A DNA stretch of 24,897 nucleotides from a virus (IMGVR_UViG_2547132278_000021:1-24897), one strand, 5' to 3'; counted from the stretch's first letter, positions 6,432 to 18,846 are shown. A program made the numbers and translations. Notes: generated by a model not told the origin, from the letters alone.

Positions 6432-6728
6432 TCACTCCTGTTCACTGGCCTCTTTGGCCATCTTCAAATACTGTTCAGGGCAATGCGCCATAACGCGCTG
6501 AAACAGTTCCAGCGCCAGATTGCGTTGCCCCTCATTAAATGCCATTGCCATAGCATCCATCGGAGAGATAGCGGAAAACACCCGGCCTTTCTCCAGCACA
6601 GACCAGACAACGCGACGCCCCTGTTCACTGCTCATGACAAAGCGAATGTCATCAATTTCACGCTGTGCCATGTCACGTTGCTTACGGGCGTTTTCTTCTT
6701 TCAGTTGATCGTCCTCGTAATCTGTCAT
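6432..6728 (-). CDS. Hypothetical 98-aa protein between portal and scaffold
   Basis: ATG 6728-6726 overlaps the portal stop (ATGA coupling); charged helical protein. Confidence 0.55.
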   Translation of the reverse strand: MTDYEDDQLKEENARKQRDMAQREIDDIRFVMSSEQGRRVVWSVLEKGRVFSAISPMDAMAMAFNEGQRNLALELFQRVMAHCPEQYLKMAKEASEQE

Positions 6729-8404
6729 TGTGATTGCCCACCCTGACCACTAACTGCATTCGCCATAGCTGACAAAACACTCGGATCCGAAGTTTTAGCT
6801 TCGCTTAGCGTCTTGGCACCCTGTGCCGCCGCCATTCCCATCGCCATCATTTGTTGCTGCTGTTGCTGCTGTGCCCGTTGCTGGCGAGCCTGCTCAACCT
6901 GTTCCTGCGGAACAATGACGGTTGGAGACACTCCGGACATATCAGCGAATGCATCGATCGCCTGATCAACATTGAGTTTGTCGAGAGCTTCTGGTTTCGC
7001 TTGCGCAAGTTGACCAATGAAGTTGACCGTAGACGCCAGACTGGACAGGCCGATAGACTTCTGCGCCTGAGCCATGACGGAAATGTATTCGACCTTCAGG
7101 GGCATACCTTCCATCGCGTCAGGCGGTGGCGGCAGCATGTTTTTACGCACCATCATCGAGAAAGCGCGGTCAATGAGAGGATTAAGACATTCGTCGTTCA
7201 GACGCTCCAGAACCGGCCCCAACATCAGAAGTTTTTCTTCTTTCATTTCGATCACCGCTTCAACAGGCATCGAGCGGGTATTGATGTTCTGCAACATCAT
7301 GAACAGATCGACAAAGTAGGCGCTGTTAATGATTTGACGGGTGTCCTGAATGTCTGCCACCAAATCTGCTGTACTGGGGTTAACCAGATAAGCAGGCCTG
7401 AAACCATCCTGACCAGTAATCTGATCGATATACGTGATGTCGCCAGGAAGAAGGGAGGCACGCTGATTCTTGAGGGAAGTCGGAGCAACCATCGGCGGAT
7501 TGGTGGCTTTATCAATCAACTGCGACTTGCGCTTCTGGAGAAGCTGCAATGCCTTAACAGGTCCAAGCGCCAGCATACCCGGGCATGATGATCCATAAAC
7601 ATCTTCGCCGTTAACTTCCCAGCGCGGAGCCATAATTGGAAACTCATCGAATCCGGACTCGCGCAACAACTTGTCGTTATCGCCACCAACCTCGTAATAA
7701 ACCGATTTGAATGGCTTGTTCTTGCTATCCAGCTTCGATGTATCGCGGTCAATGTTCGGGTAAACCGAATGCATCACTTCAATCCACTTCTCGTAGGTGC
7801 CGCTTTCCCACATGCTTTTTACGGATTCGCTGACGTTATTTAGCCCGAACTCCTGAACAAGCTGACGAACAGTCATAGAGAACTTGCGAAAACAGGTGTC
7901 CACACTGCCACGAGGTGAGTTAGCCAGGTAGTAACTGCCTATCGGGAATGGCATTGTGCGAATGATGTCCTCGTCATCCTCCAGCACTGCCATTGCACCA
8001 GTGCTGTATGTGCCGAGGCTTCCGTATAACTGCGGCAGCGACTGATAGAGATTCGACTTATTGAACATATCGTTCATGCGGTTCTGCACCGCCTCAAGCC
8101 ACAACTTAACAGGGCCATAATCCATCATTTCAGGATCTGGCGTAGCCAGGCGAAACCACGGACGCGCGGGGCTTGTGATGCCTGACATCATGCCGCTGGC
8201 GAGAGTGCGCGCCGCCATAGTCCCGGTCGAATCAATAATGCGTGTATTGCGTCGATCGTTACGGTTGACCTCAGAAGTCAGAAAGCGGGAACCACGTGGG
8301 TTGATGTAATCACTCAACTCGCGCCAGTGCGGCTCGAACGACTGACGCTCGCTTTCAAGTTGTGCGAACTGTTTGTTCAATCGCTCTTTAGTTGTTTCCG
8401 CCAT
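6725..8404 (-). CDS. Portal (head-to-tail connector) protein, podovirus type (559 aa)
   Basis: Size, position after terminase, and a Gln-rich C-terminal tail (QQRAQQQQQQQMMAMGMAAAQGA...) reminiscent of T7-type connectors. Start context CCGGAGTCATTGAA-ATG. Confidence 0.75.
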   Translation of the reverse strand: MAETTKERLNKQFAQLESERQSFEPHWRELSDYINPRGSRFLTSEVNRNDRRNTRIIDSTGTMAARTLASGMMSGITSPARPWFRLATPDPEMMDYGPVKLWLEAVQNRMNDMFNKSNLYQSLPQLYGSLGTYSTGAMAVLEDDEDIIRTMPFPIGSYYLANSPRGSVDTCFRKFSMTVRQLVQEFGLNNVSESVKSMWESGTYEKWIEVMHSVYPNIDRDTSKLDSKNKPFKSVYYEVGGDNDKLLRESGFDEFPIMAPRWEVNGEDVYGSSCPGMLALGPVKALQLLQKRKSQLIDKATNPPMVAPTSLKNQRASLLPGDITYIDQITGQDGFRPAYLVNPSTADLVADIQDTRQIINSAYFVDLFMMLQNINTRSMPVEAVIEMKEEKLLMLGPVLERLNDECLNPLIDRAFSMMVRKNMLPPPPDAMEGMPLKVEYISVMAQAQKSIGLSSLASTVNFIGQLAQAKPEALDKLNVDQAIDAFADMSGVSPTVIVPQEQVEQARQQRAQQQQQQQMMAMGMAAAQGAKTLSEAKTSDPSVLSAMANAVSGQGGQSQ

Positions 8405-8625: not shown

Positions 8626-8653
8626 ATCAATGACTCCGTACGCAATTAAATTA

Positions 8654-8730
8654 TTACCAATTTAACCACATATGATTTATTTATCGTAGATAGTTGACAT
8701 TTAACGCACAAATTATTACCTTTCAGGTAA
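8654..8730. promoter_or_regulatory. Operator-like site TTACC-TTTCA-GGTAA (8716-8730) with consensus -35 TTGACA (8694-8699) and a degenerate upstream half-site (8654-8668) at the cassette spacing
   Basis: Perfect 15-bp dyad identical in form to the immunity-region operators. Flank AAATTATTACC matches the flank of the pL-like proximal operator. Transcription direction not resolved. Confidence 0.45.
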
Positions 8731-9052
8731 GCAAAGAGTTCATTCCGGTTATTAACCTGACTGGCTTGTCGTTAAATTGAACAGGTGGAGTGAGCTTTTA
8801 TTTTGAGCAGTACGGCGTATGGCACATGCGCCGATAGCGGTCTGGATACGTTTAAGGGGCACCCTCCCTTGCTCGGGCAAACGAACCAGGTAGCCGGAAT
8901 GTGCAAGTCGAGCGGTTTTATTCCGCGCACGGGGATTCACCATCCCGGCGATTTGGTGTGACGCCTCGGAAGAGACGAGGGTACAACGATGAGAGCATTT
9001 ATGGAGCCGCGACAAAGTGTGGCGCCTTAACAGGCTAAGTGCTCTCAGCGTT

Positions 9053-9129
9053 GTGGCATTAGCTCAGTTGGACAGAGCAACCGCCTTCTAAGCGGTTGGT
9101 CGCAGGTTCGAATCCTGCATGCCACGCCA
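9053..9129 (+). tRNA. tRNA-Arg (anticodon TCT, decodes AGA)
   Basis: 77-nt cloverleaf folded by hand: acceptor GTGGCAT/ATGCCAC, D stem GCTC/GAGC, anticodon stem ACCGC/GCGGT with loop CTTCTAA (U33, TCT, A37), T arm GCAGG-TTCGAAT-CCTGC, discriminator G, encoded CCA. Confidence 0.9.
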
Positions 9130-9214: not shown

Positions 9215-9292
9215 ACAGCAGGACGCCATTGCGATGACTTCATGCTGTAAACCCGTACAGCCACGGAAGGCATAACTCATTGCTTCCAGTTC

Positions 9293-9327: not shown

Positions 9328-9653
9328 ATGAACGACCAGCAAATCGAAAAAGAAATCGTTGAGAAAGGCAAAACCGCTCCGCGAGTTACGCCTCAATATA
9401 TCGAAAGCATCATTCTTGAAGAGCATTTCTTTACTGCTTAGACGGCATTCGTGCTGCCAATATGGGCGTTGGCGATTCATGGACAGCGCATAAATCTACA
9501 GACCTCCTGACTTTCTGCGTATTGGTACTGAAGAATGGCTTCACCGTCACCGGAGAGAGTGCCTGTGCAAGTCCGGAAAATTTTGATGCAGAAATTGGTC
9601 GGAAGATTGCCCGGCAGAATGCTGTAAACAAAATCTGGATGCTTGAAGGTTAA
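9328..9653 (+). pseudogene. Gp49-like small phage protein gene (Phage_gp49_66-type) disrupted by a frameshift
   Basis: ATG 9328 with AGGTGAG Shine-Dalgarno encodes MNDQQIEKEIVEKGKTAPRVTPQYIESIILEEHFFTA then TAG at 9439-9441. The adjacent frame continues from 9441 (DGIRAANMGVGDSW...LKNGFTVTGESACASPENFDAEIGRKIARQNAVNKIWMLEG) to TAA 9651-9653; the two frames join with a 2-nt offset. Confidence 0.5.
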
Positions 9654-9686: not shown

Positions 9687-9700
9687 CGTGACATGTCACA
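9687..9700. repeat. 14-bp element CGTGACATGTCACA (perfect 12-bp palindrome GTGACATGTCAC), copy 1, downstream of terL
   Basis: Identical 14-mer recurs at 11952-11965. Confidence 0.8.
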
Positions 9701-9703
9701 AAC

Positions 9704-9730
9704 AGCCAGCCGATGAGCTGGCTTTGTTTT
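9704..9730 (+). terminator. Intrinsic terminator (possibly bidirectional) between the Gp49-like gene and the terL 3' end
   Basis: Stem AGCCAGC / GCTGGCT with loop CGATGA, followed by TTGTTTT; A-rich on the other side. Confidence 0.55.
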
Positions 9731-9773
9731 ATCCTCACCAGAGGATATCTCCGTCATTATCCCCGCTAACGGA

Positions 9774-11249
9774 TTAAGCATAGGGATCGTAATCTGTAAT
9801 GGCCTTGCCTTGCTGGTTCTGCTGCCCGGGAATTCGCAGGCGCTTTGACACCGGGAAAGCAAACGTCAGCAGTAGCGCATCGCCTTTACCAGGCGAACGC
9901 CCAAGTCGTTCTTTGATATCTTCCTTCGGTTCGATAACGATTTTACCGTCCACGCGAACTTTGTACTCTGCCGCCGACAGGTCGTCTGCAGTTTCCTGGT
10001 CATCCAGCATGCCGCCTAGCCTCAGCCATGTCTTGCATGAGTTGAACATCTCCCCACGCTTGTTGAGCATCTGCGGGTCAGTAGACGCGCCACCGAACGG
10101 AACAAGTTGCCATGTACGACCCCAGCCGTCACCGATTGACTTCAAACCGGTTCCGTAACCGAAGTCGATGAACACCGCGTCAGCCTGATACTGGTCTTCA
10201 AAGTCAGCGATACGCTTCGCCATAATCAGATCGTCGGTAGTCTTGTTGCCAGTCCACAGCACCTTACTGTGCAGCCCCTGCCGCAGGTATATCACAGCGT
10301 CATCAACGCCTGAGTATGCCGGGTCAACGCCGATTATCACCGGAGCATGTGCAACCTGCGCAGCGGTTACCACCCGTTTCATTGCCTCATCAGTAAGACC
10401 GGTAGGGATAAACTGCAATTCAGATGCATCAGGGAATATGCCGCGCACACGGACCTTCACGAAGTCGCTGTCCTCGCCATGGTCTTCAATCCATTTTTGA
10501 ATCTGCTCTTTGTTCGTTCCTTCGACGGTACGGCTGTCGATCTGCTTCGTAACCCAGCGGTGTTTATATTTGCGGAAGCATTCCCTGAAACGCCCGGAGT
10601 TACGCGTAGGGTTTCCGAACGCTACCCAGATGATTTCCGTGTCTTCGTCCGTCAGCGCACCCTCGGCCACCTCCCAAACTTTATCAGCAATGTTTGACGC
10701 CTCATCGAATACCACGATGATCCGCTTACGCTCGTTGTGCAGGCCGGCGAACGCCTCGGTGTTGTGCTCAGACCACGGGATTGCGTCAGCGCGCCAGCGT
10801 TTATCGTGGCCCGGATCATTGCTGTACATGGCTGTTGCTGGGGTAGAGAACCAGTCTTTCGTGATGGACAGGTTTGCCCACTTAATCACTTCAGGCCATG
10901 TCTTGGTACGCAGCTGATTTTCGGTGTTGGCAGTGACTACTGCTTTGCAGTCTTCGCAGGTTGACATACCCCAGTTCAGGAGCATGGAAATACCCGCACT
11001 TTTCCCTATGCCGTGGCCTGAAGAAACGGCAATCATCAGCGGCTGATGACGGGTTTCTGGGTTCCTGAGGTGCTCACCAACCGTATCGAGCATCCATCTT
11101 TGCCAGTTTCTTGGTCCGGATGCATGCGCCAGCTCTGTACCCTCTTCCCCCCACGGGAACGCATAGAGGGCATAGCCAAGCGGATCGTGAGTGAACCCTG
11201 CTATATCCTCGATCAACTGCTCTTCAGGAGATAACGATGTATCTGTCAC
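9774..11249 (-). CDS. terL: Terminase large subunit (491 aa)
   Basis: N-terminus SPEEQLIEDIAGFTHDPLGYALYAFPWGE..., a Walker-A-like GHGIGKSAG and an acidic VVFDEASNI stretch, then a nuclease-sized C-terminal domain. GTG start at 11249 overlaps the terS stop (GTGA). Confidence 0.85.
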   Translation of the reverse strand: MTDTSLSPEEQLIEDIAGFTHDPLGYALYAFPWGEEGTELAHASGPRNWQRWMLDTVGEHLRNPETRHQPLMIAVSSGHGIGKSAGISMLLNWGMSTCEDCKAVVTANTENQLRTKTWPEVIKWANLSITKDWFSTPATAMYSNDPGHDKRWRADAIPWSEHNTEAFAGLHNERKRIIVVFDEASNIADKVWEVAEGALTDEDTEIIWVAFGNPTRNSGRFRECFRKYKHRWVTKQIDSRTVEGTNKEQIQKWIEDHGEDSDFVKVRVRGIFPDASELQFIPTGLTDEAMKRVVTAAQVAHAPVIIGVDPAYSGVDDAVIYLRQGLHSKVLWTGNKTTDDLIMAKRIADFEDQYQADAVFIDFGYGTGLKSIGDGWGRTWQLVPFGGASTDPQMLNKRGEMFNSCKTWLRLGGMLDDQETADDLSAAEYKVRVDGKIVIEPKEDIKERLGRSPGKGDALLLTFAFPVSKRLRIPGQQNQQGKAITDYDPYA

Positions 11250-11839
11250 TGATTACCATCCTGACGTTCTTTGAGTCGCTTCCTGGCTGCTGCTATGCGA
11301 TCAGCAATTGTCACATTCACATTAACATCCAGACGTTCTTTGAACGCGTTGACATCAACATGCTTACCAATCAGCTCAAGGTTCTTCACCTTGTCAGGCC
11401 ATTTAATTTTTTTGAGGATTGTCTCTATCGAATCCTCGTTCATGTTCATGATGGTCGATGACAGATCAAAGCCACTAAGCGTAGTGCGCCAGATTTTCGG
11501 CCACTCACGGATTGGTTTAAGGCTCCCATCGTCGTTGAGGATGTCGATCACGTCCATCTGGTCGATCTCCACCAGGCGCATGAGAACGTAATCAGCACTG
11601 ACGCGCATTCGTTTGTTGCGCTCCTCCATCAACTCGGCAATCCGTTTTTGAATGCGTTCATCGCGCATCATGACACTGGCTTTAACTGCCGCTGTATTTG
11701 GAGAGAATCCTGCGTTAATCGCTGCCTGAGTCTGGTTTTCAGGCGTTTTGATGTATGACTGGCAATAAGCCTCCTGCATTGCTGTTAGTGGCTTAAATTG
11801 CGTTGATTTGCGTTTATAGGTTTTAGGTTCAGCAGGCAT
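11246..11839 (-). CDS. terS: Terminase small subunit (Terminase_2-like), ~197 aa from the internal ATG
   Basis: Region LTAMQEAYCQSYIKTPENQTQAAINAGFSPNTAAVKASVMMRDERIQKRI has the Terminase_2 HTH pattern. Track start 11920 would place a terminator hairpin inside the coding sequence; ATG 11839 is preceded by GGTGG. Confidence 0.75.
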   Translation of the reverse strand: MPAEPKTYKRKSTQFKPLTAMQEAYCQSYIKTPENQTQAAINAGFSPNTAAVKASVMMRDERIQKRIAELMEERNKRMRVSADYVLMRLVEIDQMDVIDILNDDGSLKPIREWPKIWRTTLSGFDLSSTIMNMNEDSIETILKKIKWPDKVKNLELIGKHVDVNAFKERLDVNVNVTIADRIAAARKRLKERQDGNQ

Positions 11840-11884
11840 CATAACCACCGTGGTAATAGTTACCGTTGTGGTAATAGTACCATG

Positions 11885-11911
11885 CAAAATAAAGCCGCCA
11901 TAGTTGGCGGC
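11885..11911 (-). terminator. Intrinsic terminator hairpin upstream of terS
   Basis: Minus-strand GCCGCCA-ACTA-TGGCGGC followed by TTTATTTTG. Confidence 0.5.
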
Positions 11912-11951
11912 AGTATTCAAAACCCATCAAATTCATCATGCATAATCTACT

Positions 11952-11965
11952 CGTGACATGTCACA
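11952..11965. repeat. 14-bp element CGTGACATGTCACA, copy 2, overlapping the stop of the Cys-rich gene
   Basis: Identical to 9687-9700. Confidence 0.8.
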
Positions 11966-12299
11966 CTATTAATTTCGTTTCATGCCAGCCTTTAGTCACC
12001 CAGCATTGCGAGTCACCATTACACGGGCATGAATTAACTGGAACTCTCTCGCCGCACTTACCGCAACATTTTCTGCTGATCGATTTTATACGCCCGCGCA
12101 CGCGTGCATCATCCTGGCGGATCAGTAACGCTATATACTCACCAAATTCGTAAGGCGCACGCCCGGGGCGACGCGTGGCACAGTTACGCTCCAGCATTTC
12201 AATTTCCTGAGCATCAAGCACAATTTCCAGCTTACGCACACCAGATGCAGCTTGTCTGGCTCTCTGAGCGGCTTTGCGCTCTGCTGCTGATTTAGCCAT
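11961..12299 (-). CDS. Hypothetical Cys-rich protein (112 aa) with basic Arg/Ala-rich N-terminus
   Basis: ATG at 12299. N-terminus [24 protein letters not shown]-terminus [22 protein letters not shown] suggests metal binding. Sits immediately upstream of the palindrome, terminator and terminase genes. Confidence 0.5.
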
Positions 12300-15594: not shown

Positions 15595-15597
15595 GAT

Positions 15598-15674
15598 TTA
15601 CCTCTAAGGTAATTAAAAACCACATAAGACACGAAATCAATAGATCTAAGAATATTTTGTTACCTATCAGGTAA
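15598..15674 (-). promoter_or_regulatory. Internal promoter-operator cassette: operators TTACC-TCTAA-GGTAA (15598-15612) and GTTACC-TATCA-GGTAAC (15659-15675) flanking -10 TTTAAT (15612-15617) and -35 TTGATT (15635-15640)
   Basis: Two perfect dyads 62 bp apart centre to centre, the same spacing and layout as the pL-like cassette; 17-bp spacer between the hexamers. Confidence 0.6.
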
Positions 15675-15686
15675 CTATTGAGGCGT

Positions 15687-17357: not shown

Positions 17358-17372
17358 GATTAATCTCCGCTA

Positions 17373-17573
17373 TCAGCTTGAATGTTGTGGGGAGGAATTA
17401 ATCATGATCTGCTTAATCTCTGCCCTGATGCGACGGTTTGATTCCATGGTGCACTCAACACAGTGTCCGTTGTAAACCCAGCGTTCACTGTCATGTCCGT
17501 GCTTACATGGTTTTCCGGTGTAGTAGCGTTTAAGTCCGCGCTTTGCGGCATCAATACGTGTAATGATTTCCAT
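17373..17573 (-). CDS. Hypothetical zinc-finger-like protein (66 aa from ATG 17573)
   Basis: C-x-H-G-H ... C-V-E-C arrangement (KPCKHGHDSERWVYNGHCVEC). Track start 17636 is a TTG with no Shine-Dalgarno. Confidence 0.4.
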   Translation of the reverse strand: MEIITRIDAAKRGLKRYYTGKPCKHGHDSERWVYNGHCVECTMESNRRIRAEIKQIMINSSPQHSS

Positions 17574-17652
17574 GGTAAGCCCTGTTATTAGTATTGGGAT
17601 TACGGTTATTTTGTGCTGACACAAAAAAAAGATCAACCAGATTTGGTTTTTT

Positions 17653-17667
17653 GTTACCTTTGAGGTA
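17653..17667. promoter_or_regulatory. Imperfect operator TTACC-TTTGA-GGTAC directly after the cro-distal terminator
   Basis: One mismatch from the TTACC-N5-GGTAA dyad. Confidence 0.4.
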
Positions 17668-17678
17668 CGAATAGATAT

Positions 17679-17700
17679 GAAAAGACCGCCGGATGGCGGT
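17679..17700 (-). terminator. Intrinsic terminator after the Cro/CII-like gene (tR1-like position)
   Basis: Perfect 7-bp stem GACCGCC / GGCGGTC with loop, followed on the minus strand by TTTTC. Confidence 0.5.
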
Positions 17701-17723
17701 CTACAGAGGTTTGTGGCTGGATA

Positions 17724-17954
17724 TCATGAGTAGAAGAAGTATGCCAGTTCTGCTTTTGAGCGCAGCCATTGTCTTGTTTTACAGGCTTTAAAAAGCCCAT
17801 TCATCAATACCTTACCTGGCATTTTGCGCTTACCTGTTAAGTGAGTCTGGATATAGTGACTCGTCGTTCCGGCTTCCTGTGCGAAGGCTTCACGCTCATC
17901 CGGAGTAAGTGCAAGCCAGTGCTTTTTGAAATCGAAATGTCCGTTATCGCTCAT
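17724..17954 (-). CDS. Cro/CII-like HTH regulator (76 aa), first gene of the early-right operon
   Basis: Divergent from the repressor gene. Helix-turn-helix-like stretch EAFAQEAGTTSHYIQTHLTGKRKMP; FDF...AFAQ resembles CII-type regulators of 186-like phages (from memory). Confidence 0.55.
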   Translation of the reverse strand: MSDNGHFDFKKHWLALTPDEREAFAQEAGTTSHYIQTHLTGKRKMPGKVLMNGLFKACKTRQWLRSKAELAYFFYS

Positions 17955-17990: not shown

Positions 17991-18053
17991 TCACCCATAA
18001 GGTAACAAAAATCAAGGATAGTTACCTATGAGGTGCATTTACCTGTTGGGTAA
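17991..18053. promoter_or_regulatory. Immunity-region operator cluster (OR-like): TCACC-CATAA-GGTAA (17991-18005), TTACC-TATGA-GGTGC (18022-18036), TTACC-TGTTG-GGTAA (18039-18053)
   Basis: Three dyads in the 154-bp divergent intergenic region between the cro-like and repressor genes. Candidate cro promoter hexamers TTGTTA/TATTAT overlap the first site. Confidence 0.65.
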
Positions 18054-18108
18054 TATTGCTTTAAATTGAATCATCTACTGATTCATATATGAGGCGATTT
18101 TCCAGAAA

Positions 18109-18693
18109 ATGAAAAGTATCCAGGACGTCCGCAGGCAAAATCTCAACGACTTGATCGACCGTGAATTCAATGGTGTTCAGACGCGGATGGCAGAAAAACT
18201 TGGAACTCAGGCAAATCTGGTAAACCGCTGGGCTCTTGGCAAGAAGGTTATCGGCGACCAGGTTGCGCGAAAAATTGAAGCTGCCGCCAATAAACCACGT
18301 AACTGGCTTGATATCGATCGCTCGCTTTCTCAAGAAGGTTTTCAGCCTGTCGGCCCGAGTGATATAGGTCAGCTGGCTGCTCACAACCTGGAACGCTGGA
18401 TGAGCGAAAGCCGCGACCTTTCAACGCAGGGAAAACTACACCGCGCATCCGGCGTCGCCCAGGTGACAATCAGCCGCCTGTTAAACAATGAGGTCAGCGT
18501 TTCCATTTCCACCCTGGAGAATGTTGCATCCGCATTCGGGCGTCATGGCTATGAATTACTGATTCACCCGCACGACCCTGCGACTATCAACTATGACCGC
18601 TCGCGCTACGCATTGTTACCCGAAACCGAGAAAGCAAAGATCGAAAGTTACATTGAATTTGTCATCAACCAGAACGAAAAAAGCAAACAATAA
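18109..18693 (+). CDS. Phage immunity repressor candidate: tandem double-HTH (XRE-type) protein with no LexA/S24-like cleavage domain (194 aa)
   Basis: Two HTH-like segments (TRMAEKLGTQANLVNRWALGKK and LHRASGVAQVTISRLLNNEV); divergent from the early-right operon; followed by a strong terminator. Confidence 0.65.
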   Translation: MKSIQDVRRQNLNDLIDREFNGVQTRMAEKLGTQANLVNRWALGKKVIGDQVARKIEAAANKPRNWLDIDRSLSQEGFQPVGPSDIGQLAAHNLERWMSESRDLSTQGKLHRASGVAQVTISRLLNNEVSVSISTLENVASAFGRHGYELLIHPHDPATINYDRSRYALLPETEKAKIESYIEFVINQNEKSKQ

Positions 18694-18713
18694 AACTATA
18701 GTTTTCAGCAAGT

Positions 18714-18739
18714 AAGCCGCCTCATGGCGGCTTTTTTAT
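18714..18739 (+). terminator. Intrinsic terminator after the repressor gene
   Basis: GCCGCC-TCAT-GGCGGC followed by TTTTTT. Confidence 0.7.
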
Positions 18740-18750
18740 TGCCGAAAAGA

Positions 18751-18827
18751 TTACCTTGCAGGTAATTTTTTTAACTCATATCTATTGACATCAAACCAGA
18801 TACGCATAATTATTACCCCAACGGTAA
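18751..18827 (+). promoter_or_regulatory. pL-like promoter-operator cassette: operators TTACC-TTGCA-GGTAA (18751-18765) and TTACC-CCAAC-GGTAA (18813-18827) flanking -35 TTGACA (18785-18790) and -10 AATTAT (18808-18813)
   Basis: Consensus -35, 17-bp spacer; the proximal operator begins at the last base of the -10; operator centres 62 bp apart. Confidence 0.65.
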
Positions 18828-18846
18828 CAAGCCGAGGTAACAAGTT

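What the first reader, a model, noticed from the sequence alone, without database searches (positions are those of the whole stretch)
11843..12299. Candidate late-control module upstream of terminase: Cys-rich basic protein, palindrome, terminated leader
Directly upstream of terS lie a 112-aa protein with an Arg/Ala-rich N-terminus and a multi-Cys C-terminus, a perfect 12-bp palindrome at its stop codon, a hairpin terminator at 11885-11911, and direct repeats GTGGTAATAGT(T)ACC at 11849-11881. The gene order (regulator, short terminated leader, late genes) recalls the lambda Q-pR'-tR' layout, although no Q homolog is recognisable. This may be an undescribed late-gene activator or antiterminator.
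Basis: inference. Interest (0 to 1): 0.6.

Follow-up and report, generated by a model that had tools for sequence, protein, structure and literature searches.

The report
Phage regulator with stop-codon palindrome
The small protein just upstream of the packaging genes of this epsilon15-like prophage is probably a DNA-binding regulator whose likely target, an invariant 12-bp palindrome, overlaps its own stop codon and recurs after the next gene block; it is not a lambda-Q-style late switch, and its real job is untested.

Summary

The main new result is that GTGAC-NN-GTCAC overlaps the TGA stop of this gene in 24 of 34 loci, across five phage types and whatever lies downstream. Complete genomes carry about three copies against about 0.04 expected. 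The window has a second exact copy at 9688-9699, just after the terL terminator.

The "direct repeats" are two tandem copies of the ATTACC-N5-GGTAAT sequence that the epsilon15 record annotates as a repressor site. They overlap a conserved extended -10, so terS probably has its own repressor-controlled promoter. The "leader" is the 3' remnant of a 70-aa gene that is intact in about a quarter of close relatives. The family coexists with Q-like genes in N15 and ZF40.

Verdict: a gene-plus-site unit of a new RHH/zinc-ribbon variant, most likely a boundary or roadblock regulator. The Q analogy is not supported, but a late-gene role in epsilon15-like phages is not excluded. Moderate interest.

The parts
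11961..12299 (-). Gene for the 112-aa regulator-like protein: basic N-terminal helix, probable ribbon-helix-helix core, C-terminal four-Cys zinc ribbon. It is the last gene of the early-right operon.
11953..11964 (.). Palindrome GTGACATGTCAC overlapping the TGA stop; inferred cognate DNA site of the protein (site 1).
   Evidence: The site starts 1 nt before the stop in 24 of 34 loci across clades. The half-sites never vary among 31 unique close versions.
11917..11943 (-). Nine-codon mini-ORF (MHDEFDGF, then stop). Its 3' part is the remnant of a 70-aa gene (phrog_1541, unknown function) that is intact in the 385-nt variant of close relatives. It is not a leader RNA.
   Evidence: Comparison of the 199-nt and 385-nt versions; phrog_1541 at 2.1e-39 for the intact gene.
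11885..11911 (-). Intrinsic terminator ending the early-right operon: stem-loop 11911-11894 and U-tract 11893-11885.
   Evidence: Conserved in epsilon15, where it is annotated as a rho-independent terminator. One variable column in 18.
11874..11882 (-). Extended -10-like element TGGTACTAT immediately after the terminator; proposed terS promoter, read by eye.
   Evidence: Sequence. TGnTA(C/G)TAT is kept in epsilon15, L009, L010, L012 and L024. Inference: the scan tool requires a -35 and did not report it.
11841..11875 (.). Two tandem 17-bp operator-like sites (11859-11875 and 11841-11857) of the ATTACC-N5-GGTAAT type. The second covers the terS Shine-Dalgarno.
   Evidence: 8 sites against 0.55 expected. 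The epsilon15 record annotates the equivalent site as repressor-binding.
11246..11839 (-). terS, the small terminase subunit.
   Evidence: Pfam Terminase_2 at 1e-29 and phrog_51 at 7.7e-58. Same length as the TL-2011b annotation.
9774..11249 (-). terL, the large terminase subunit.
   Evidence: phrog_2 and phrog_5902; annotation of TL-2011b and epsilon15.
9700..9733 (.). Hairpin between terL and the convergent plus-strand genes. The U-tract is poor in the terL direction (GTTTGTG) and good for plus-strand transcripts (TTTGTTTTAT).
   Evidence: Sequence read. The same arrangement occurs in epsilon15 and in L007-L012 and L016.
9688..9699 (.). Second exact copy of GTGACATGTCAC (site 2), abutting the terL-side hairpin and 35 nt past the stop of the convergent Gp49-like gene.
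   Evidence: Present at the equivalent place in 50 of 71 close relatives with enough sequence, in epsilon15 and in SPN1S.
8715..8731 (.). Operator-like site upstream of the next late unit (68-aa gp3 homologue, then portal).
   Evidence: the equivalent epsilon15 site at 2931-2947 is annotated as repressor-binding.
18038..18828 (.). Immunity region: cI-like repressor gene 18109-18693(+) flanked by three operator-like sites (18038, 18750, 18812). This is the reference set that identifies the terS-proximal repeats as operators.
   Evidence: phrog_8 and other repressor families; sequence.

Best explanation
The 112-aa protein is a sequence-specific DNA-binding protein. It probably forms a ribbon-helix-helix dimer with a basic N-terminal helix and a C-terminal four-Cys zinc ribbon. 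Its target is the palindrome GTGAC-NN-GTCAC. Gene and site form one inherited unit, because the site contains the gene's own TGA stop.

The gene closes the early operon of several temperate-phage types. In this prophage the protein would be made from the early-right operon after derepression. It would then bind at the end of that operon (11953-11964) and at the end of the terS-terL block (9688-9699).

Inferred, not shown: it acts negatively, as most RHH proteins do. It would work as a roadblock or boundary element that limits its own synthesis, stops read-through across unit ends, and separates core operons from the variable accessory genes inserted next to each site.

terS-terL transcription does not depend on a Q-like leader. 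It most likely starts at an extended -10 promoter just past the terminator, covered by two copies of the sequence annotated in epsilon15 as a prophage repressor site.
For: Fold:
- AlphaFold pLDDT is 92.2.
- Weak sequence hits all fall in the same register: the YbfE model, RHH_5 and RepB-RCR_reg, and hhalign to CopG and ParD.

Link between site and gene:
- The site starts 1 nt before the stop in 24 of 34 loci. These include N15, an unrelated Logan contig at 36% identity, and Yersinia P2-like prophages.
- The half-sites are invariant, while the central two bases differ between clades that also have different predicted beta-strand residues.
- There are no sites in 607 kb upstream of the gene in 76 relatives.
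- There are about three sites per complete genome.

Position at unit ends: epsilon15 has sites at the gp49 stop, after the terL hairpin, and at the gp18 stop 2 nt before a terminator. SPN1S is the same and adds a near-site at the Rz stop.

Positions typical of repressors:
- The site lies 19 nt upstream of the terS and gene-0032 start codons in Vibrio phage K233.
- It abuts the Shine-Dalgarno of N15 gene 47 and of the 70-aa gene.
- It lies next to the -35 of LexA-box promoters at variable distance, with 2, 6 or 7 nt between.

Independent terS promoter: operator-type sites and a conserved TGnTAnTAT.
Against: - No binding experiment exists, so the pairing of protein and site rests on co-occurrence alone.
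- A roadblock at its own stop codon would truncate its own mRNA, which is an odd design.
- Some sites lie inside coding regions: two in ZF40 and one in N15 repA.
- The second site is missing in about 30% of close relatives, so it is dispensable.
- The protein is the only regulator-type gene recognised in the early-right operon of phages that have no known late switch, which favours a positive role.
- The operator assignment comes from sequence annotation in the epsilon15 record, not from data I could read.
Confidence: 0.4

Rival explanations
1. Late-gene switch by site-specific antitermination, a modified form of the first reader's idea. The protein binds the palindromes next to the terminators at the ends of the early operon, terS-terL and gp3-gp18. 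It then makes passing RNA polymerase terminator-resistant, so early transcription runs on into the late genes.
For: - No other regulator was recognised among the early-right-operon proteins scanned.
- All three epsilon15 sites lie within about 25 nt of a terminator hairpin, and the window's site 1 lies 41 nt from one.
- The C-terminal half resembles the RNA-polymerase-binding factors TraR and YbiI: the top three PDB profile hits have E 0.02-0.05, and hhalign to TraR gives 59%.
- In K233 the sites precede the lysis genes and terS.
Against: - The family coexists with Q-like proteins in N15 and ZF40.
- In L007, L008, L011 and L014 the site is followed directly by a promoter, with no terminator.
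- Other terminators annotated in the epsilon15 late region (7647-7686 and 23242) have no site.
- Each late unit carries its own operator-type promoter region.
Confidence: 0.2
2. Shut-off or modulator of the accessory and SOS genes placed next to each site, working like P22 Arc on Pant. The protein represses LexA-controlled antirepressor, UmuD-like or other small genes once early genes are expressed.
For: - In L007, L008, L011 and L014 the palindrome lies 2-7 nt upstream of the -35 of a LexA-box promoter.
- Yersinia P2-like prophages have the site upstream of a LexA-box promoter.
- The epsilon15 third site adjoins gp19, which has a LexA box and weakly matches anti-repressor family phrog_1760.
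- One N15 site lies between gene 33 and the operon of genes 32-30, whose gene 30 is annotated anti-repressor Ant.
Against: - In epsilon15-like phages the sites near convergent accessory genes lie at their 3' ends, not at their promoters.
- The window has no gene or promoter between site 1 and the terminator.
- The distance from site to promoter varies.
Confidence: 0.15
3. Architectural role, like MatP on matS. The protein bridges its two or three sites to loop or condense the phage genome for replication, packaging or conflict avoidance, with no direct effect on transcription.
For: - The site has the same GTGAC and GTCAC half-sites as matS, GTGACRNYGTCAC (my own knowledge).
- Each genome has a few dispersed sites.
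- The extra C-terminal domain could mediate oligomerisation.
Against: - The site is 12 bp, not 13.
- hhalign to MatP gives 1% probability.
- Site positions are not conserved between phage types.
- The second site is dispensable in about 30% of relatives.
Confidence: 0.1
4. The palindrome is not this protein's site. It could be bound by a host or other phage factor, act as an RNA hairpin near stop codons and ribosome-binding sites, or mark recombination junctions at accessory-gene hot spots.
For: - Every epsilon15-type site adjoins a variable insertion spot.
- Several sites abut ribosome-binding sites.
- The basic N-terminus resembles arginine-rich RNA-binding motifs (my own knowledge).
Against: - The link between site and gene holds across enteric, Yersinia, Vibrio and N15-type clades with clade-specific central bases.
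- As RNA the site gives only a 4-bp stem, and the stem shows no compensatory change.
- Twelve bp is too short for homologous recombination, and the window shows no recombinase gene next to either site.
Confidence: 0.1

Closest known systems
Lambda Q with pR' and tR' (Q-type antitermination)
   Same: A small regulator gene at the end of the early operon, followed by a terminator and then the late genes. Q also contains zinc-binding cysteines (my own knowledge).
   Different: No Q-family hit. No conserved promoter or leader between gene and terminator. The family coexists with Q-like genes in N15 and ZF40. The site is a 3'-terminal palindrome, not a promoter-embedded Q-binding element.
RinA, ArpU and LtrC late activators encoded just upstream of terS in Gram-positive phages (PMC3152322)
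   Same: Gene position immediately upstream of terS, at the boundary between early and late genes.
   Different: No sequence relation was detected. Those proteins bind the terS promoter itself. Here the site lies behind a terminator at a variable distance (about 73-91 bp from the predicted start) and follows the gene rather than terS.
P22 Arc and Mnt, CopG, and CopB/YbfE: ribbon-helix-helix repressors
   Same: Predicted strand-helix-helix core in the same register, a short palindromic target, and a small phage or plasmid regulator.
   Different: It has an extra basic N-terminal helix and a C-terminal four-Cys zinc ribbon. The target lies at the 3' end of its own gene and at unit ends rather than over a promoter. 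No model reaches its threshold.
MatP and matS, the E. coli Ter macrodomain organiser
   Different: matS is 13 bp and this site is 12 bp. There is no significant sequence similarity. The flanking domains differ: a four-helix bundle and coiled coil in MatP, a basic helix and zinc ribbon here.
DksA/TraR C4 zinc-finger family (TraR, YbiI, lambda Orf73)
   Same: A long helix followed by CxxCG..(I/L/V)P and G...C. These are the top three PDB profile hits, and hhalign gives 59%. Phage-encoded members are known (my own knowledge).
   Different: The Cys spacing is C-x2-C-x8-C-x7-C, not CxxC-x17-CxxC. There is no PF01258 hit. The tip is basic rather than acidic, and it is fused to a DNA-binding half.
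P2 Ogr and P4 Delta, zinc-finger late activators
   Same: A small Cys-containing phage regulator. Ogr-type sites are dyads of the form TGT-N12-ACA (my own knowledge).
   Different: No Ogr/Delta hit was found. The family occurs in P2-like Yersinia prophages next to the replication gene, not at the ogr position.

Membership tests
Ribbon-helix-helix (CopG/Arc/MetJ) superfamily | Strand-helix-helix fold of about 45 residues | tested here: inconclusive
Ribbon-helix-helix (CopG/Arc/MetJ) superfamily | Match to an RHH sequence model above threshold | tested here: not met
   Only sub-threshold hits: YbfE model E 0.052, RHH_5 E 0.013 and RepB-RCR_reg E 0.028 in a few members, hhalign to CopG and ParD 3-4%. 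All fall in the same register.
Ribbon-helix-helix (CopG/Arc/MetJ) superfamily | Dimer that binds a short symmetric DNA site through the paired strands | not testable with these tools
   A 12-bp dyad is tightly linked to the gene. Binding and dimerisation need experiments.
Lambda Q-type antiterminators | Sequence membership in a Q family | tested here: not met
   No Q-family hit in Pfam, PHROGs or NCBIfam.
Lambda Q-type antiterminators | A late promoter with a short terminated leader directly downstream of the gene | tested here: not met
   There is only one 9-of-12 promoter-like match, and it is not conserved. The spacer is a gene remnant.
Lambda Q-type antiterminators | Serves as the phage's only late switch, so it should not coexist with another Q | tested here: not met
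   N15 gene 46 coexists with Q-like gene 40, and ZF40 gp22 coexists with Q-like gp25.
DksA/TraR C4 zinc-finger family | CxxC-x17-CxxC zinc finger matching PF01258 | tested here: not met
   The pattern is C79-x2-C82-x8-C91-x7-C99. None of the 63 members matched PF01258 at E <= 0.05.
DksA/TraR C4 zinc-finger family | Profile-level similarity of the helix plus zinc ribbon | tested here: inconclusive
DksA/TraR C4 zinc-finger family | Acidic tip that reaches the RNA polymerase active site | tested here: not met
   The conserved loop before the long helix is RRPGRxPY, which is basic.
MatP/matS | 13-bp site GTGACRNYGTCAC | tested here: not met
   All sites have a 2-bp centre and are 12 bp long.
MatP/matS | Sequence homology to MatP | tested here: not met
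   hhalign gives 1.2% probability. The MatP sequence I used was verified against 4d8j.
Intrinsic (rho-independent) terminator | GC-rich hairpin followed by a U-tract on the transcribed strand | tested here: met
   7 pairs of which 6 are G-C, a 4-nt loop, then TTTATTTTG. It forms in the minimum-energy fold and is annotated in epsilon15.
Epsilon15-type prophage repressor operator | 17-bp dyad ATTACC-N5-GGTAAT, clustered around the repressor gene | tested here: met
   8 sites against 0.55 expected. Three flank the cI-like gene and two lie upstream of terS. The assignment itself is the epsilon15 record's annotation, not an experiment I could read.

The most novel reading that the evidence does not exclude
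The protein is a DNA-tethered relative of the TraR/DksA RNA-polymerase-binding factors. It would sit on palindromes next to the terminators that punctuate the genome and convert passing polymerase to a terminator-resistant form. That would make it the missing late switch of epsilon15-like phages and a new class of site-specific antiterminator.
Probability: 0.12. Interest if true: 0.8.

Novelty: new variant of a known kind. Interest (0 to 1): 0.5.

Why it matters
No paper found in the searchable library describes how epsilon15/phiV10-like podoviruses time late gene expression. These phages convert O-antigens in Salmonella and E. coli O157. The module occurs in 636 of 5,426 complete E. coli genomes, where the protein is still annotated as hypothetical.

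Linking the protein to a precise 12-bp site gives a directly testable handle: binding assays, site mutants and transcript-end mapping.

A regulator whose target contains its own stop codon, and recurs at the ends of other transcription units, is an unusual layout. It may be a general way for mosaic phages to keep a regulator and its site together and to separate core operons from accessory-gene hot spots.

It also corrects the annotation of the terS upstream region, which holds repressor-type operators and a likely promoter rather than a leader.

Tried and rejected
- Pfam, NCBIfam and PADLOC gave no family for the protein.
- A single-sequence PDB search gave only a spurious Cys-rich hit.
- Foldseek against PDB found nothing.
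- Homology to MatP was considered because of the matS-like half-sites and rejected at sequence level.
- A sigma-70 promoter between gene and terminator was rejected: it is weak, not conserved, and the spacer is a gene remnant.
- The 36-aa ORF 11829-11939 that spans the terminator was rejected as a gene, because it is truncated in relatives.
- The PerC-like "transcriptional activator" of the left operon was considered as the late switch. It belongs to the PerC family, which I regard as a regulator of host genes rather than of phage late genes (my own knowledge).
- Literature searches found nothing on the palindrome, on N15 gp46 or on late control in these phages.
- The epsilon15 genome paper and the SPC32H repressor papers are not held.
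- Locus searches with the most divergent alignments failed.
- The IMG/VR scan returned only near-identical relatives.

Full report
**Context**

The window is an epsilon15/phiV10-like (Uetakevirus) prophage. It is 97.6% identical to phage TL-2011b across the query region and 100% identical to an E. coli chromosome.

All genes around the finding lie on the minus strand. The early-right operon encodes O-like and P-like replication proteins, a RuvC-like resolvase, a DNA methyltransferase, a DUF551 protein and NinX. It ends with the 112-aa gene at 11961-12299. A 121-nt intergenic region follows, then terS (11246-11839), terL (9774-11249) and the structural genes.

- The protein has the described composition, and its cysteines are conserved.
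- GTGACATGTCAC at 11953-11964 is a perfect palindrome that contains the TGA stop.
- The hairpin at 11911-11894 with TTTATTTTG is a canonical minus-strand terminator.
- GTGGTAATAGT is repeated exactly, 18 bp apart.

**The protein**

It matches phrog_536, which is labelled "transcriptional regulator" (1.7e-54). No Pfam, NCBIfam or PADLOC family passes threshold. RefSeq phage records call its homologues "transcriptional regulator": epsilon15 gp49, N15 gene 46 and ZF40 gp22. In the E. coli chromosomes listed, the feature under the match is annotated hypothetical protein.

The family has hundreds of 90%-identity clusters and 152 representatives at 50% identity. It occurs in 636 of 5,426 complete E. 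coli genomes.

A 63-sequence alignment gave a confident model (pLDDT 92.2):
- a basic helix at 5-19
- an extended segment at 20-29
- helices at 30-42 and 52-74
- a small beta-hairpin region carrying C79, C82, C91 and C99
- a last helix at 100-108

The C-terminal half gives a separate weak signal to the DksA/TraR zinc-finger family. These are the top three PDB profile hits (E 0.02-0.05), and hhalign to TraR gives 59%. Against membership, the Cys spacing differs, no member matches PF01258, and the loop where those factors are acidic is basic here.

I read the protein as a probable RHH DNA-binding domain with a zinc-ribbon extension. RHH membership is likely but not proven.

**The palindrome belongs to the gene**

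This is the main result. I compared 27 genome loci from enterics, Yersinia and a Limoniibacter isolate, plus the window and six phage loci. GTGAC-NN-GTCAC starts 1 nt before the TGA stop of the family gene in 24 of the 34, and lies within 5 nt of the stop in three more. A Logan contig whose protein is only 36% identical shows the same arrangement.

This holds whatever lies downstream:
- terS
- a LexA-box promoter with an 85-aa gene or a UmuD-like gene
- ninB
- xis-int at a prophage end
- the variable region of P2-like prophages

The sequence after the site is unalignable between these contexts, and the last codons differ, yet the ten half-site bases never change. The central two bases differ by clade: AT in most enterics, GC in Yersinia, TG in N15-type and AC in Vibrio. 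The predicted beta-strand residues also differ between those clades, while the basic N-terminal helix is conserved. That pattern fits strands reading the centre and helices reading GTGAC, but it is confounded by phylogeny.

Among 31 unique close versions of the intergenic region, 77 of 201 columns vary. Only one palindrome column varies, and it is a centre position.

Complete genomes carry about three sites, against about 0.04 expected for 40 kb (my calculation): three each in epsilon15, ZF40, N15 and K233, and three plus a near-site in SPN1S. In 76 close relatives there are no sites in 607 kb upstream of the gene.

**Where the other sites lie**

The window's second exact copy, at 9688-9699, directly follows the hairpin after terL. 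It lies 35 nt past the stop of a convergent Gp49-like gene. The same hairpin-plus-palindrome follows terL in epsilon15, SPN1S and L007-L012 and L016, and in 50 of 71 close relatives with enough sequence.

The third epsilon15 and SPN1S site lies at the end of the gp3-to-gp18 block. In epsilon15 it overlaps the gp18 stop and sits 2 nt before a terminator. Next to it is gp19, a reverse-oriented gene with a LexA box that weakly matches an anti-repressor family. SPN1S also has a one-mismatch site that contains the Rz stop.

In epsilon15-like phages the sites therefore mark the 3' ends of forward transcription units, each next to a spot where variable accessory genes are inserted.

Elsewhere the positions differ:
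- In K233 two sites lie 19 nt upstream of the start codons of terS and of another gene.
- In N15 one site abuts the Shine-Dalgarno of gene 47, one lies between gene 33 and the operon of genes 32-30, which ends in the annotated anti-repressor gene 30, and one is inside repA.
- In ZF40 two sites are inside coding sequence.

**The repeats and the "leader"**

The epsilon15 record annotates ATTACC-N5-GGTAAT dyads as repressor-binding. They occur around the repressor gene and also upstream of terS, gp3 and the tailspike gene. The window has eight such sites against 0.55 expected:
- three flanking the cI-like gene at 18109-18693
- two near 15600
- one upstream of the gp3 homologue
- two in tandem at 11859-11875 and 11841-11857

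Immediately after the terminator lies TGGTACTAT (11882-11874). This extended -10-like element is kept as TGnTA(C/G)TAT in diverged relatives. I infer a terS promoter starting near 11867, covered by the operators. That is a sequence reading, not a measurement.

The 41-nt spacer between palindrome and terminator is not a leader. About a quarter of close relatives (20 of 82 intergenic segments compared) carry a 385-nt version of this region, encoding a 70-aa protein of unknown function (phrog_1541). The window keeps only its last codons, GATGAATTTGATGGGTTTTGA. In epsilon15 the spacer is 23 nt of unrelated sequence. Other relatives have a LexA-box promoter with an 85-aa gene, or a UmuD-like gene, at the same spot.

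**Interpretation**

Firmly supported: a gene-plus-site unit of a widespread, uncharacterised DNA-binding family, a genuine terminator, and repressor-type operators with a likely promoter in front of terS.

Not supported: the lambda Q analogy. Its defining features were tested and not met:
- no Q homology
- no promoter and leader
- coexistence with Q-like genes in N15 and ZF40

For mechanism I favour a negative, boundary-type action at modest confidence, for three reasons:
- RHH proteins are mostly repressors.
- Several sites sit where only a block to polymerase or to initiation makes sense, such as between an upstream unit and a ribosome-binding site, or beside a -35 at variable distance.
- In this phage type the sites mark unit ends.

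The main rival is a positive late role by antitermination at the adjacent terminators. It stays alive because these phages have no other recognised late regulator, and because of the weak TraR-like signal.

A role in shutting off neighbouring SOS or accessory genes, and a MatP-like architectural role, are also open. The site shares GTGAC half-sites with matS, but it is 12 bp rather than 13, and there is no sequence homology to MatP.

**Novelty**

I found no paper in the library that mentions the palindrome or assigns a function to the family. The primary epsilon15 and SPC32H papers could not be read, so a passing mention there cannot be excluded. I rate it a new variant of a known kind: an RHH-type regulator with a zinc ribbon and an unusual stop-codon and unit-end site layout. 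Interest is moderate.

Noticed in passing
window 9053-9129 (+): A tRNA-Arg (anticodon TCT) lies inside the prophage, between terL and the portal block. It is on the opposite strand to the late genes. The ZX5 paper also reports one tRNA in its genome.
   Followed up: partly
window 9328-9653 (+): The Gp49-like accessory gene (N4 gp49 / Sf6 gp66 family in epsilon15) is split into two ORFs here, 9328-9441 and 9462-9653. It is one 125-aa gene in L016, so this copy is probably a pseudogene. A CTGT-N8-ACAG LexA-box-like match lies 68 nt upstream at 9245-9260.
   Followed up: partly
window 8650-9050: About 400 nt between the tRNA and the promoter region of the gp3 homologue have no convincing ORF and no Rfam match. 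The content is unexplained.
   Followed up: partly
window 17372-17725 (-): The cro-like gene is followed by a strong hairpin with a U-tract near 17700-17675 and an operator-like TACCTCAAAGGTAAC. Next comes a 66-aa Cys-rich protein (CKHGH...CVEC), which appears to correspond to epsilon15 gp40 (phrog_1081, unknown). A terminator this early in the right operon suggests read-through control or a second promoter.
   Followed up: no
window 6665-6676: A one-mismatch copy of the palindrome, GTGCCATGTCAC, lies inside coding sequence near the portal and 98-aa gene junction. TL-2011b has it too. It may be chance, since about 0.05 such matches are expected.
   Followed up: partly
L084, L085 and other IMG/VR relatives, between the palindrome and the terminator: About a quarter of close relatives carry an intact 70-aa gene (MPKIRYDLEDMRDN...; phrog_1541, unknown function) that is deleted in this window. 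The spot also holds LexA-controlled 85-aa or UmuD-like genes in other prophages, so it is an accessory-gene hot spot.
   Followed up: partly
window 15597-15613 and 15659-15675: Two more operator-type dyads lie inside the early-right operon, between the P-like loader gene and the RuvC-like gene. This matches an annotated epsilon15 site at 35906. It suggests repressor control, or an internal promoter, in the middle of the operon.
   Followed up: no
L001 21731-21982 (TL-2011b) and L006 29375-29674 (epsilon15): In these two relatives the gene labelled "transcriptional activator" in the left operon is a PerC-family protein. Members of that family activate host virulence genes in pathogenic E. coli (my own knowledge). 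I did not locate or test the window's own copy.
   Followed up: partly
L121 about 1320-1385: In one distant family member the two half-sites are split: GCGTGACCGG and CCGGTCACGC are separated by 34 nt, starting right at the stop codon. This suggests a variant site geometry.
   Followed up: no
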